From Schizosaccharomyces osmophilus (Eukaryota), in contig NC_079238.1 of NCBI RefSeq assembly GCF_027921745.1, positions 744,001-808,000 on the forward strand: a DNA stretch of 64,000 nt. The letters are read 5' to 3'. Within the stretch, counting starts at the first letter, position 1. Each line of letters begins with the position of its first letter. The translations under genes were made by a program, and so were the position numbers. The notes beneath the pieces were generated by a model. The model saw nothing but the letters and a program-made list of their open reading frames with translations, ran no database searches and had not been told where the DNA came from. Of the stretch, positions 4,816 through 8,968 are shown piece after piece.

Positions 4816-4934
4816 GACTACGGCCACACCTAGGCGAAAACACCAGTTCCCGTCCGATCACTGCAGTTAAGCGTCTGAGGGTCTCGTTAGTACTATGGTT
4901 GGAGACAACAAGGGAATCCGGGATGCTGTAGGCT
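4816..4934 (+). rRNA. Dispersed 5S rRNA gene, copy 1 (variant)
   Basis: 119 nt GACTACGGCCACACCTAGGCG...GCTGTAGGCT matching the fission-yeast 5S sequence, followed by T-runs (Pol III terminator). Confidence 0.95.
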
Positions 4935-5177
4935 TTTCACTTTTTTATTTTACTTTTTGCTTCTTTTTGTTGCTCTTTTAAAAATTGAAGCACATGGCTT
5001 TAATCGTGATCGACATAGACGTTTGACTTAGTGATACTAGTGATTGCAAGGAAGCAATGGTCATCCATGATTCAATAATTAATTAAATTCTTTATTAGTT
5101 ATTAATTAAAAGGTTCTATAAGGATCAGTGATTAAAAGCGTCTGACGAATAAATATAAGAAACAAAATGCAAAGATG

Positions 5178-5219
5178 AAACATAAACATAAACACAAACA
5201 TAAGCAAAAGCAAAAGCAT
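5178..5219. repeat. Degenerate hexamer tandem repeat (AAACAT/AAACAC/AAGCAA)
   Basis: aaacat aaacat aaacac aaacat aagcaa aagcaa aagcat read directly; lies in the 3' flank of the wag-like gene. Confidence 0.7.
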
Positions 5220-5280
5220 GCTGGAGAAAAAACAACAAGAACGGACATCATAATAAACAATGCTTTACTTTCCGTATAAA

Positions 5281-6118
5281 TCAATTCCCACCGCTTTCAA
5301 CATCCCTAGACTGACCCGGTTCCTGGCGTAACCCTGGAGATTGCTCAGTATGTTCAGAGGACGGTTGTTTAAAAGTATCATCACTACGATCGTTGAACTG
5401 GTTTTCAGGCTCTGGTGGCAAGCTGTTTAATGGGATACTATTATCATCCGTCAAGTCGTTTCTATCCGATGACATCCTGAAGCCTAGAGCACTAGTAATC
5501 ACAGAAAAAAACGAGGAAATCCAAGAAAAAACTAGACGAATCAATATAACGATTATATCCACCAACACTAAAAGTACCCCATTAGTAAACATATCAAATT
5601 AAAATTCCACCATTTCACTTACATGAACAAACATATAGAAACATGTAGAAAGCCATGACGACAAGAACAGCTGCTACAGTAGCTTGAAAGTTTACCCCTA
5701 CAGATTCTTTCATCGATTCCTTTATAAAGGGGACAAGGTATTTGTAAGAAAACCAAAAGTTTACTATGACCGAAAGAATAAAGCAAAAACTAAGCCGAGC
5801 AGTTTCATTTTCCTGTCTGCGTTGTGCTTCGGGGATTCTCACAATTTTTGCCGGCCAGAAAATTAACCACAATAATGCCGTCAAGACATTTCGTAAAGAA
5901 ATAGAGAATATATTTCCTCCTGCCATGTTGGTAGACGCTTCTTGATGTCTGTTTTCTGAGTACGGAGGTGCATGACCTTTTTCCAAGTCGTCTAGATGAG
6001 AATTCAAGATTTCATTGTACCGTGGCAGTTCACCGTCAAACGTTGCAAGAGTGCCCAAGCGAGGAACGTCAGCTGAATCAGCATCTTTTAGCTTTTTGTA
6101 TTTGTTTTTTTCAATCAT
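5281..6118 (-). CDS. wtf-associated (wag-like) membrane protein, 2 exons (6118-5623, 5567-5281), 260 aa
   Basis: Two ORF-track fragments join in phase via intron 5622-5568 (GTAAGT..CTAAT..TAG) into a 783-nt frame. Several hydrophobic segments; N-terminal LPRY and DLEKGHAPPYSE. Divergent from the wtf gene inside a 5S pair. Start codon uncertain. Confidence 0.72.
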
Positions 6119-6669
6119 TTTCTGAAATTCCTTCAAAACCTACTCAAATAGGCAGTAAACACCCAAATTCATGTCAGAACTTTCAAAAAGTAGCACACAT
6201 CCGATCCGACTAACAAGCTTAATAAAATCTACTTTGTAACAACTCCAAACTACATGAATCGAGTCCACAATGGCAATGACTAGAGTTTTGCAGAGGTGAA
6301 GCTGTCATTCACCCTCTCTGACACACATACCGATAGCTAGTAAGCGTACGCTATTCTATATATATTTACAATGAATGAACAGTCCGAAATCGCTTTTGTT
6401 TGTTTCTATCGTGTGATTAAAATAAATTAAATAAAAAGAAAGATGTACTTGTCAGTACAAATGCTGTTCGTGATAGTTGAAACAATGCTTTTACAAACTT
6501 CCGATGAATTTGCTGAAAGTAAGGCTACGAAAATCTAGAGTGTTCAATCCTTTTCCCTGGAGTTCATTAAGCCAAAGTTACTGAATCTTTCAATACAAAT
6601 ATGAGCATTTCCAATCCCTTGTTTTTATCATTCAAAGCAAAAAGCATGGTTGTTTTTGCCAAATGTTCC

Positions 6670-6678
6670 TTTGTTTAC
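6670..6678 (-). promoter_or_regulatory. FLEX (Mei4/forkhead) motif between wag-like and wtf genes
   Basis: TTTGTTTAC, i.e. GTAAACAAA on the minus strand; a second core GTAAACA at 6155-6161. Confidence 0.5.
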
Positions 6679-7009
6679 TTTTTGTAATAAACGACGACTC
6701 TTTTGGATTATACTATTACGAAAAATCGCAATGAGGACTGTGACCAGTCAGTGACATAATGTCGCTGCTTTTATGAATTAAGACATGCGAAAAGCCGTTA
6801 CCAAGATTTTTTCAAACTCGCATCTTTGGTTTTAAGGGAACACTCGTGTTGTAAGATTAGTTTGCTTTTTAAGCAAGGTCCAATTCCTTTTTCTGACAGA
6901 TCTGTGAAGAGCGGAACCAGTTCCTACGGACTTTTCTTGGTGATTCTAGTTGATTTCATTTAGAGTGTAAAAGTCAGTATCATTTTGGGCTCTAATTGCC
7001 ATTGTAAAT

Positions 7010-8131
7010 ATGAAAAACAAATATACTCCTATTTCAGATTCTGATGACTCTTCCAAAACGCTCAATGATGAAAAGGCAGATAGTCAGTCGTCTCCTTCAG
7101 ATGGTACGCCTCCTCCGTATTCAGGTAAGATTAGTTGAAATAGAAAGGAAAGGTTGATTTTTTGCGTGCTTTTTGAGCGGTTTTTGATGGAAGAATCATG
7201 CTTGTTTATTTATTTGTTGGGTTTGAGATGAATAACCTTGTCGATAAGTGTCAACAAACAGGGCGAATACCTCTATCCTTTTCACAAACAACGAAAGAAC
7301 AGTTACTAATACATCCATTAGCTTCAACCAAATTTATTGATCTCGAAATGGCTCCTGAAACAGAAGAAAGTTCTAAAAAGAAAAGATATCTGACGCCTCG
7401 TGAATTAGCAATTGTTTTTGCTATTTTTATTGTATATAATGTATGCTTGATTATTGCGAGGGTCATTCTTCTTGTTTACGAAATTCCGTTTAATCAGCTT
7501 GCCGTTTGGGTACTTTTTGGCGTTTGGTGCGCTCTATTTCTGTCATTGACAATTGGTAAGAAACTAATTTCAGGATTTTTAATGACTCACTAACTATTAG
7601 TAATAACTCAAATGCCTAAAGAATGGTTCCCGCAGGCCAAACAAGGGCTCACGCAAGCTGGAAGAGCAACCAAAAACGTATTGTCAGCTATGTGTATCGC
7701 AGCATTATATGTGTGTTTTCTCGATGTCCCTGGTTTTGTCGTGTATTATGCTGCAAAGAAGTTAACAGGATTTGAAAAGATAAACAATCAATTTTCCTAT
7801 GCTGTTTGTTTTGTTGATTCTGTCTTGTTTCTTTTTCTTTCGAGTATGCCATACAACCTGTGAACTATTCTAACTATTCTAGTAAACGGAAAGGCTCGTG
7901 AAAGCGTAAACTCTAGCTGCGTTATTTTCGTAAAAACCGTGAAAAAGAGCATAGGAATGAGTCTAAGCGTTATGGCAGACTTTTTGTTGTGGGATTCAGG
8001 TATTGTACATTGTGTTATGTTTCTTTCGTAACATCCTACTAACCTATTAATAAGGAACAAATCGAGGAGAAGAAACACCTCGGAACGAAGAAATCGAACT
8101 TCAACCTCTTGCTGAGCGGGCTGAAGTTTGA
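7010..8131 (+). CDS. wtf: wtf-family meiotic drive (poison/antidote) protein, 5 exons: 7010-7124, 7322-7555, 7601-7843, 7883-7999, 8055-8131; 261 aa
   Basis: Exon 1 reads MKNKYTPISDSDD...GTPPPYS (PY motif). Four phase-1 introns with CTAAY branch points splice to a 786-nt open frame. Multiple TM segments; C-terminus EEIELQPLAERAEV*. In-frame downstream ATG at 7348; flanked by 5S genes. Confidence 0.88.
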
Positions 8132-8849
8132 CTTTTACCGAATCCGCTTTCATTCTTTATATATCGCTCCTTCTTTGGAAACATCGATGTCAATTGCAGT
8201 CTACTAAGTTCCCTGTATTCGCTCTCACAAAAGCAAGCATCTGATGAATCCGGCAGACTTTGATTGCTTTACTAATTCACTCTTTTTTTATTTGTTTCAC
8301 AGCACCGTTGTTTATGCATCGTTCATTTCCTTCTTGAATAGACACCCTTTTTAATGATTATTTAATTATTCTGAGGAAAATATCATCGTAATTAACTAGT
8401 TTTTTACTCAATACTGTGTCGTGTCTTTCATTAATTGTAAGAACGAAAGTGATTACCGCCAGAGGTACAAATGATTCACAGCGTAGAAAGCACAAGTCTT
8501 CATATCGAAAGATTCGACAGATGTAGCTTAATTAATGAAATTATCGTTTATTTAGAGAGTCAAGTCGACGGACCATGAAAAACGTTTAAGTAGAACCGAT
8601 TTATAGAACTACAACTTTTTCAGCCCATAAACTCAAACACTCAATCTCATGCTTCTGCGACCACAATGAGAATCAATAGAAAAGAGAAAACTGCTGTTTT
8701 AAATCTTATCCTTACAGTATGAAAGCATTCTCCATTCAACGTGACAAAACACACAGATAGAACTGAGTTGAATTGGATCTTGTAGTTCATCAAGCCAAAT
8801 AAAAAACTGAATCATTATTGTATAAATATCTTTACAGACCACAACAAAC

Positions 8850-8968
8850 GTCTACGGCCACACCTAGGCGAAAACACCAGTTCCCGTCCGATCACTGCAG
8901 TTAAGCGTCTGAGGGTCTCGTTAGTACTATGATTGGAGACAACATGGGAATCCGGGATGCTGTAGGCT
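8850..8968 (+). rRNA. Dispersed 5S rRNA gene, copy 2
   Basis: 119 nt GTCTACGGCC...GCTGTAGGCT; TATAAATA about 29 nt upstream (8821) and T-run terminator; 116/119 identical to copy 1. Confidence 0.96.

What the first reader, a model, noticed from the sequence alone, without database searches (positions are those of the whole stretch)
4816..8968. 5S rDNA-flanked cassette carrying a wtf meiotic-driver gene and a divergent partner gene
Seen: two same-orientation 5S genes (4816-4934, 8850-8968; 116/119 identical, with similar ~25-nt T-rich tails) bracket exactly two genes, a 5-exon wtf-like gene (+) and a 2-exon membrane-protein gene (-), arranged head to head. Established: wtf genes are spore-killing poison/antidote drivers, and in the S. 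octosporus clade they associate with dispersed 5S rDNA and wag genes, unlike the LTR association in S. pombe. Inference: this ~4.15 kb unit is a selfish module that can be inserted, excised or copied by recombination between host 5S repeats, a transposase-free mobile driver.
Basis: partly seen in the sequence, partly recalled or inferred. Interest (0 to 1): 0.9.

Follow-up and report, generated by a model that had tools for sequence, protein, structure and literature searches.

The report
Known wtf-wag cassette between 5S genes
This is an already catalogued fission-yeast gene pair, a predicted spore-killer gene (wtf) and its partner (wag), between two 5S rRNA genes; the layout was published in 2022 and is likely copied and lost by recombination at those 5S genes, and pieces of such units likely crossed between species.

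Summary
In detail: two same-strand 5S genes (116/119 identical) bracket a 2-exon partner gene (-) and a 5-exon wtf gene (+), head to head. It is Schizosaccharomyces osmophilus SOMG_00344 (wtf3; wtf28 in the other sequenced strain) with SOMG_00343 (wag); published coordinates fit the window at a constant offset. The layout, the name wag and both 5S-recombination models are in De Carvalho et al. 2022, where 17 of 42 S. osmophilus wtf rows have this layout. The idea is therefore known, not new. At this locus mobility and drive are not shown: it is present in both strains compared, the syntenic interval of S. cryophilus is longer and appears to hold a wag, the FLEX motif has a mismatch, and this gene was not among those tested. 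It looks like an old site overwritten by gene conversion. One lead I did not find in print: S. cryophilus wtf1 equals this Wtf at 78 of 79 residues, and 3 of 14 S. osmophilus Wag proteins carry a tract 48/49 identical to a S. cryophilus Wag, which suggests recent exchange between species.

The parts
4816..4934 (+). 5S rRNA gene, upstream copy
   Evidence: Rfam RF00001, 99.9 bits
4935..4967 (+). T-rich tail (likely Pol III terminator), shared with the downstream copy
   Evidence: direct repeat D1 extends to 4967 / 9001; local alignment of the tails; terminator role inferred
5281..6118 (-). wag gene SOMG_00343 (wag15 of the 2022 table); exons 6118-5623 and 5567-5281; 260 aa; LPRY motif at residue 31, hydrophobic stretch about 139-195
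   Evidence: model equals stored protein P0001; 8 of its 9 S. octosporus homologues are named wag genes; coordinates chr1:749281-750118
6119..7009 (.). divergent intergenic region, 891 bp, shared by paralogous cassettes
   Evidence: many paralogous contigs lie on it
7010..8131 (+). wtf gene SOMG_00344 (wtf3 in type-strain numbering, syntenic with wtf28); 5 exons; long (antidote-type) product 261 aa
   Evidence: chr1:751010-752131, offset 744000; identical by eye to the osmo_wtf28 row over the 185 residues shown
7109..7120 (+). PY motif (PPPY) in exon 1, specific to the long product
   Evidence: role of PY motifs from PMC10721834
7250..7260 (+). FLEX-like Mei4 site in intron 1, GTCAACAAACA, 1 mismatch to the consensus
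   Evidence: same sequence listed for wtf28 with p 2.48e-5, below the paper's confident cut-off of 3e-6
7348..7350 (+). in-frame ATG early in exon 2 (Met48), predicted start of the poison-type product (214 aa)
   Evidence: frame; position (whose frame labels were off by one base)
8850..8968 (+). 5S rRNA gene, downstream copy
   Evidence: Rfam RF00001, 103.6 bits
3197..3633 (+). left neighbour cox16 (SOMG_00342), single-copy host gene, outside the cassette
   Evidence: Pfam COX16
11924..12952 (+). right neighbour psu1 (SOMG_00345), single-copy host gene, outside the cassette
   Evidence: Pfam SUN

Best explanation
[quoted passage not shown] Shown: the anatomy, the identity, the paralogues. From the family (PMC9562144, PMC10721834): a long transcript gives a PY-motif antidote that is ubiquitinated and carries the poison to the endosome/vacuole; a short meiotic transcript from intron 1 gives the poison from the ATG in exon 2; spores without the gene die. 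Inferred for this copy: the site between cox16 and psu1 was colonised after the split from S. japonicus, probably before the split from S. cryophilus, and its content has since been homogenised with paralogues by ectopic gene conversion. I put present-day drive by this copy at about 0.4; otherwise it acts as a weak driver or as a suppressor of near-identical copies.
For: Identity. Layout in 17 of 42 S. osmophilus wtf rows; 15 S. osmophilus Wag proteins among 30 hits, the query included; summed contig depth 2,327-5,616 in the nine bins wholly inside the cassette against about 150 in the flanks of run X1 (not a copy number). Age of the site: cox16 to psu1 mid-points 2.05 kb in S. japonicus, 9.0 kb in S. 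osmophilus, 11.9 kb in S. cryophilus, 240 kb in S. octosporus, where wtf72-73 and wtf71 lie at the two separated flanks and the wag pseudogene SOCG_01598 lies next to cox16 SOCG_01600. Overwriting: this Wag is 76-95% identical to 13 paralogues elsewhere but 57% to the S. cryophilus Wag at the apparently syntenic site, while three flanking orthologues are 92-93% identical; in the tree the S. cryophilus and the S. octosporus Wags each form one side of a branch (100/98, 100/99). Ectopic recombination and a 5S-mediated presence/absence are reported in this species.
Against: No drive, toxicity or transcript-start data for this gene in what I read (0 hits for wtf28 in the main texts). The FLEX site is imperfect, and 11 matches with at most 1 mismatch lie in the 64-kb window. 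No tandem repeat was found in exons 3-5 at 75% or more, whereas many family members carry one in exon 4. The 14 intact wag-linked S. octosporus wtf genes have 0-6 short-transcript reads against 22-33 for the three proven drivers. The place of the S. cryophilus wag rests on accession order, not on coordinates. Independent insertions at a shared 5S would give the same synteny picture.
Confidence: 0.85

Rival explanations
1. One reading: an active mobile driver that recently inserted into a single pre-existing 5S gene, by way of an excised circle, and still moves.
For: Direct 5S repeats at both ends. The circle model is proposed in PMC9562144. wtf31 differs in presence between two strains. The paper's table marks a 5S without wtf at the syntenic S. 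cryophilus site.
Against: Locus shared by both strains; S. cryophilus interval longer than here, with a wag by accession order; wtf genes at both separated flanks in S. octosporus; the two 5S copies differ at 3 sites and share no upstream sequence. Joints in X1 that mimic excision or a circle (4888>8850, 8966>5007) have 28-36 letters on the short side within a repeat of over 100 copies and chromosome-level depth (149, 162), so other 5S loci explain them.
Confidence: 0.15
2. The wtf copy is in effect an antidote-only suppressor or a silent copy: the poison is little made or not toxic, and the unit persists by protecting against near-identical drivers.
For: Weak FLEX site; a 95.8% identical paralogue, wtf12; 1 of 2 S. 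osmophilus poisons tested was not toxic; low poison-transcript counts of wag-linked genes in S. octosporus. This rival concerns activity only and is compatible with the anatomy above.
Against: Intact frame, in-frame exon-2 ATG, classed DRIVER by prediction; 14 S. octosporus genes without a confident FLEX hit still make the short transcript; S. cryophilus Wtf1, nearly identical over Met48-Phe126, gives a toxic poison.
Confidence: 0.45
3. Wag is a working part of the unit rather than a passenger: a PY-motif membrane protein that would recruit Rsp5/Pub1-type ligases and modulate sorting of Wtf, or a poison/antidote gene in its own right.
For: LP[RK]Y motif in 29 of 30 homologues; soluble N-terminal tail, long helices with a hydrophobic stretch, and a 7-residue repeat of variable copy number in exon 2, seen by eye, an architecture like that of Wtf antidotes; always divergent to wtf; still called uncharacterised in a preprint of December 2025.
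Against: No Wtf family match for any of 27 Wag proteins in Pfam up to E 1; the Wag profile found 9 proteins among 1.84 billion, all Wag-like by eye; S. octosporus wtf25 drives at an ectopic site as a 2.5-kb 5S-wtf-5S piece; wag genes occur without wtf in S. cryophilus; a 4-residue motif is weak evidence.
Confidence: 0.2

Closest known systems
S. osmophilus wtf3 (SOMG_00344) = wtf28 of De Carvalho et al. 2022, with wag15 (SOMG_00343)
   Same: The same locus: coordinates, strand, length 1122, neighbours cox16 and psu1, 5S on both sides, weak FLEX hit.
   Different: The other strain's gene is listed as 1124 bp; no difference in the 185 residues shown. The inter-strain table (S20) was not reached.
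[quoted passage not shown]
   Same: Layout, orientation, 5-exon gene, two predicted starts, proposed spread by ectopic conversion or circles.
   Different: This site is not among the 12 species-specific S. osmophilus loci and is scored as double partial synteny with S. octosporus.
S. octosporus wtf25, wtf68, wtf33 (proven drivers)
   Same: Gene structure, PY motif in exon 1, ATG early in exon 2.
   Different: They have the exact FLEX 11-mer, 22-33 short-transcript reads and no wag name in the table; 29-40% identity to this protein.
S. pombe wtf genes flanked by Tf LTRs
   Same: Poison/antidote logic; flanking dispersed repeats as substrates of recombination.
   Different: LTRs instead of 5S, no wag, 12-15% identity in the columns shown.
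hsp16 genes in 5S-containing repeats (SOG preprint 10.64898/2026.01.24.701316)
   Same: S. cryophilus copies intermixed with S. osmophilus copies, read by the authors as transfer or introgression.
   Different: Not drivers; the passages found say nothing of wtf or wag.

Membership tests
wtf gene family | Amino-acid homology to Wtf proteins | tested here: met
   By eye only: identical to the osmo_wtf28 row over the 185 residues shown, and annotated as wtf at these coordinates. No profile or database search with this protein was obtained, so there is no E-value of my own.
wtf gene family | Five or six exons with typical sizes, long intron 1 | tested here: met
   Exons 115, 234, 243, 117, 77 nt; introns 197, 45, 39, 55 nt; introns 1 and 2 skipped in X4 contigs
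wtf gene family | [quoted passage not shown] | tested here: met
   ATG at 7348, Met48
wtf gene family | PY motif in the antidote-specific N-terminal tail; hydrophobic membrane segments | tested here: met
   PPPY at residues 34-37; hydropathy peaks from about residues 64, 93, 139 and 180; motif conserved in these species per PMC10721834
wtf driver class | FLEX (Mei4) motif in intron 1 | tested here: inconclusive
   1-mismatch site at 7250; below the paper's confident cut-off, as for all 31 intact S. osmophilus genes
wtf driver class | Short poison transcript starting in intron 1 | not testable with these tools
   Only contigs were on offer; they cannot show starts
wtf driver class | Toxic poison, cognate rescue, biased transmission in heterozygotes | not testable with these tools
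   Needs an experiment; not reported for this gene in the texts read
wag gene family | Homology to named wag genes | tested here: met
   8 of 9 S. octosporus hits are in the paper's wag table; 55-71% identity for the 7 compared
wag gene family | Between an upstream 5S and wtf, divergent to wtf | tested here: met
   definition
5S-wag-wtf-5S unit | 5S genes in tandem with wtf on both sides; paralogous units in the genome | tested here: met
   17 of 42 rows
Transposable element (autonomous or not) | Transposase/integrase gene, terminal inverted repeats or LTRs, target-site duplication | tested here: not met
   Only two genes inside; no inverted repeat of 25 nt or more at the ends; longest word shared by the outer flanks 4 nt. 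This lowers 'it is a transposon', not 'it spreads like one through host recombination'.
Recombination-mobilised cassette | Single-5S empty allele at this locus or an excised circle | tested here: inconclusive
   Present in both strains compared; contig joints not diagnostic; only one well-covered sample of this organism was laid

The most novel reading that the evidence does not exclude
5S-wag-wtf units cross species barriers: S. osmophilus and S. cryophilus, about 29-30 million years apart, have recently exchanged pieces of these driver units, which were then patched into resident copies by gene conversion. The 5S repeats, nearly identical between species, would be the landing pads, and meiotic drivers would renew themselves from a pool shared between species.
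Probability: 0.55. Interest if true: 0.6.

Novelty: already known. Interest (0 to 1): 0.28.

Why it matters
The cassette itself adds nothing to print: gene, layout and model are published. It stays useful as a test locus for whether 5S repeats really generate circles or only conversions, which the 2022 paper left open. The side lead matters more: if driver units move between fission yeast species, part of the family's persistence for over 100 million years could come from re-import and not only from rebirth within a genome, and the question left open in PMC9562144 (transfer or introgression not ruled out) becomes testable with assemblies that already exist. The function of wag is also still open.

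Tried and rejected
No whole genome was held, so paralogues were counted from published tables, protein hits and contigs, not by my own genome search. No RNA holder was listed. Circle or empty-allele junctions: the X1 joints 4888>8850, 8966>5007 and 8969>5524 were rejected as non-diagnostic. X6 joint 8968>13627 (21 letters on one side) was not used. X5 covers the cassette but not the flanks; absence of cover is not used. Wag as a Wtf relative: Pfam scan of 27 members, best E 0.0028 to an unrelated DUF, no Wtf model listed; ESM Atlas gave no usable hit; AlphaFold model poor (pLDDT 50.4, pTM 0.22); Foldseek 0 matches at E 0.001; VIA-align best Z 8.9 on generic helical hairpins: no fold assigned, none excluded. 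No profile-profile comparison of Wag with Wtf was made. Intronic in-frame ATGs at 7198 and 7228 lie upstream of the FLEX-like site and were set aside as starts. The tree file of Figure 5 gave 484 characters and no match. Earlier findings of this scan: none. No complex prediction was run.
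Full report
OBSERVATION. Rfam finds two 5S rRNA genes on the + strand at 4816-4934 and 8850-8968, and otherwise two tRNA genes, in the 64-kb window. The 5S copies agree at 116 of 119 positions; the likeness runs through the T-rich tails (153 nt, 92%) and stops upstream (13 of 50). Between them lie two genes. On the + strand, 7010-8131, five exons give 261 aa with PPPY at residues 34-37, an in-frame ATG 26 nt into exon 2 (7348) and four hydrophobic stretches. On the - strand, 6118-5281, two exons give 260 aa. 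The start codons face away from each other across 891 bp.

IDENTITY. Exon 1 of the partner finds 30 proteins among 140 candidates, all from three fission yeasts: 15 S. osmophilus (query included), 9 S. octosporus, 6 S. cryophilus. The best is SOMG_00343 and equals my model letter for letter. Eight of the 9 S. octosporus hits are in the wag table of De Carvalho et al. 2022. The gene table of Jia et al. [quoted passage not shown] The osmo_wtf28 row of the 2022 alignment equals my translation over the 185 residues shown, by eye; the neighbouring rows wtf12 and wtf23 differ. The 2022 table gives wtf28 as forward, with wag15 reverse, 5S on both sides, predicted DRIVER, weak FLEX hit GTCAACAAACA, the motif found here at 7250. 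I have no database or profile score of my own for the Wtf protein.

WHAT IS IN PRINT. [quoted passage not shown] By my count 17 of its 42 S. osmophilus rows have wag plus 5S on both sides. PMC10085805 reports that 41 of 42 wtf loci are shared by two strains, puts the one presence/absence case (wtf31) down to recombination between flanking 5S genes, and shows ectopic recombination tracts.

PARALOGUES SEEN DIRECTLY. In run X1 the flanks lie on single long contigs with 0 differences and depth about 150, while the nine bins wholly inside the cassette sum to 2,327-5,616 from many short contigs. The tool warns that this is no copy number, and X1 may be the window's source; it shows only that the whole unit, spacer included, is repeated.

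HISTORY OF THIS SITE. cox16 and psu1 are neighbours in S. japonicus, 2.05 kb mid-point to mid-point, too close for a cassette; they are 9.0 kb apart here, 11.9 kb in S. cryophilus, 240 kb in S. octosporus and far apart in S. pombe. The 2022 table scores the S. cryophilus site as 5S without wtf, and places S. octosporus wtf72-73 and wtf71 at the two separated flanks. A S. cryophilus wag, SPOG_05704, has accession EPY53410, between mrpl19 (EPY53407) and dld1 (EPY53417); accession order followed gene order where I could check (npt1 and mrpl19 adjacent in both species; psu1 and dld1 four apart in S. octosporus, as here), so I infer that it lies in the interval. The site therefore looks old and repeatedly remodelled, and in S. 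octosporus it coincides with a rearrangement breakpoint. Its content is young: this Wag is 76-95% identical to 13 S. osmophilus paralogues and 57% to SPOG_05704, against 92-93% for the three flanking orthologues compared. In a tree of 31 Wag rows the 8 S. cryophilus and the 7 S. octosporus rows each form one side of a well-supported branch; the 14 S. osmophilus rows need 2 changes (three short or partial hits and five fragments left out). That is concerted evolution by gene conversion. Independent insertion at a shared 5S is not excluded.

MECHANISM. Shown here: anatomy and repetition. Established for the family: two transcripts, a PY-motif antidote ubiquitinated by Rsp5/NEDD4 ligases that sorts the poison to the endosome (PMC10721834), drive by 3 of 7 S. 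octosporus genes tested, drive of wtf25 at an ectopic site. Inferred for this copy: the same two products; movement and loss only through host recombination, with a 5S x 5S event removing 4,034 bp and leaving one 5S. Against present-day drive: imperfect FLEX, in a window that holds 11 sites with at most 1 mismatch; a 95.8% identical paralogue; presence in both strains; 1 of 2 S. osmophilus poisons non-toxic; 0-6 short-transcript reads for the 14 intact wag-linked S. octosporus genes against 22-33 for proven drivers. For it: intact frames, and a toxic poison from the closely related S. cryophilus wtf1. I put drive at about 0.4. Contig joints that mimic an empty allele or a circle are not diagnostic.

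LEAD: EXCHANGE BETWEEN SPECIES. (a) In the published alignment S. cryophilus Wtf1 matches this Wtf at 78 of 79 residues from Met48 to Phe126, while S. cryophilus Wtf2 matches at 62 of 79 (by eye); Wtf1 is 89.9% identical to S. osmophilus Wtf10 and 60.5% to this protein overall, against 85.2% for average 1:1 orthologues. (b) Run X6 (organism B), whose flanking genes differ from the window at 81 of 617, 62 of 500 and 23 of 241 bases, holds a contig with 2 differences over 7377-7634, 258 nt that include the 45-nt intron 2; a second wtf contig of that run has 66 differences and 23 gap letters over 7377-7855. The binomial chance of at most 2 differences at those rates is 2e-9 or less, but the tract was picked by local alignment and is mostly coding, so this overstates the case. 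(a) and (b) may be the same gene and are not counted as independent. (c) Three of 14 S. osmophilus Wags (SOMG_02330, 00285, 04924) match S. cryophilus SPOG_03193 at 48 of 49 residues in a C-terminal tract where this Wag matches at 33 of 49 and the S. octosporus Wags with a full tract at 29-30 of 49; I chose those columns after seeing the alignment, but a systematic 45-residue scan also gives 45/45 for these three, 33-44 for the other 11, and at most 40/45 for the 7 S. octosporus rows against S. cryophilus (27 of the 30 hits aligned). Constraint is an unlikely cause, as other copies differ widely there. Rivals: old polymorphism among paralogue types with slow change, or mixed cultures. The 2022 paper notes S. 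cryophilus genes inside S. osmophilus clades and does not rule out transfer; a 2026 preprint reads the same pattern in hsp16 genes as transfer or introgression; Jia et al. report it for mitochondrial elements. I did not find the tract-level claim for wtf or wag in searches or in passages. Most subscription papers are not searched, figures are not held, supplements of the bioRxiv preprints are closed, and Jia's Table S20 was not reached because the file is cut; any of these may bear on it.

WAG. An LP[RK]Y motif stands in 29 of 30 homologues, followed by long helices and a 7-residue repeat of variable copy number. No family, fold or distant relative was found. Most likely it is a PY-motif membrane protein that hitchhikes in the unit; a role in sorting Wtf is a minority reading (0.2).

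PAPERS SEEN. PMC9562144: abstract, all Results, first part of the Discussion, passages, parts of Supplementary file 1 and of the protein alignment. PMC10085805: abstract, two named sections, passages, supplement rows. PMC10721834, PMC11892871, PMC13160552, PMC11497594, and preprints 10.64898/2026.01.24.701316 and 10.64898/2025.12.28.696746: passages only. Others: search listings only.

VERDICT. Real, correctly described, already known down to the gene. Interest 0.28; the cross-species lead has probability about 0.55 and would merit 0.6.

Noticed in passing
window 7377-7634: A contig of run X6 (organism B, flanking genes about 87-90% alike) differs at only 2 of 258 bases, intron 2 included; the published S. 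cryophilus Wtf1 row shows the same near-identity in protein.
   Followed up: partly
alignment A1, columns 252-300 (P0002, P0011, P0014 against P0024): Three S. osmophilus Wag paralogues carry a S. cryophilus-type C-terminal tract, 48 of 49 identical.
   Followed up: partly
window 5281-6118: Wag proteins have a conserved LP[RK]Y motif and a 7-residue repeat of variable copy number in exon 2, reminiscent of Wtf antidotes; this copy has about one unit.
   Followed up: partly
window 3633-11924 (cox16-psu1 interval): The ancestral cox16-psu1 adjacency (S. japonicus, S. cryophilus, S. osmophilus) is broken in S. octosporus, with wtf loci at both ends, and also in S. pombe: a possible 5S/wtf-mediated rearrangement breakpoint.
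   Followed up: partly
window 9845 (+), 10534 (-), 11601 (-): Two exact FLEX 11-mers and one with a mismatch lie in the 2.9-kb stretch between the cassette and psu1, which has no ORF of 110 aa or more; possibly a meiotic promoter or non-coding transcript.
   Followed up: no
window 11188-11259: tRNA-Gln(TTG) gene 2.2 kb downstream of the cassette, a third Pol III gene in the interval.
   Followed up: no
run X4, window 3250-4666, 7122-7600, 8380: X4 is on record as 'DNA?' but its contigs skip introns and end in runs of A; one contig joins cox16 exons and runs on to 4666, 150 bp short of the first 5S, suggesting a long 3' UTR.
   Followed up: no
run X1 and X6, 5S position about 4871 / 8905: Some 5S copies elsewhere carry a 6-nt insertion (TGAAAA) in both organisms: a variant or pseudogene class of 5S.
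   Followed up: no
P0047, P0048: Two unnamed full-length Wag-like proteins, 46% and 36% identical to this one, branch outside the named wag genes; perhaps older wag lineages.
   Followed up: no
window 5178-5203: AAACAT tandem repeat, 4.3 copies, downstream of the wag stop codon.
   Followed up: no
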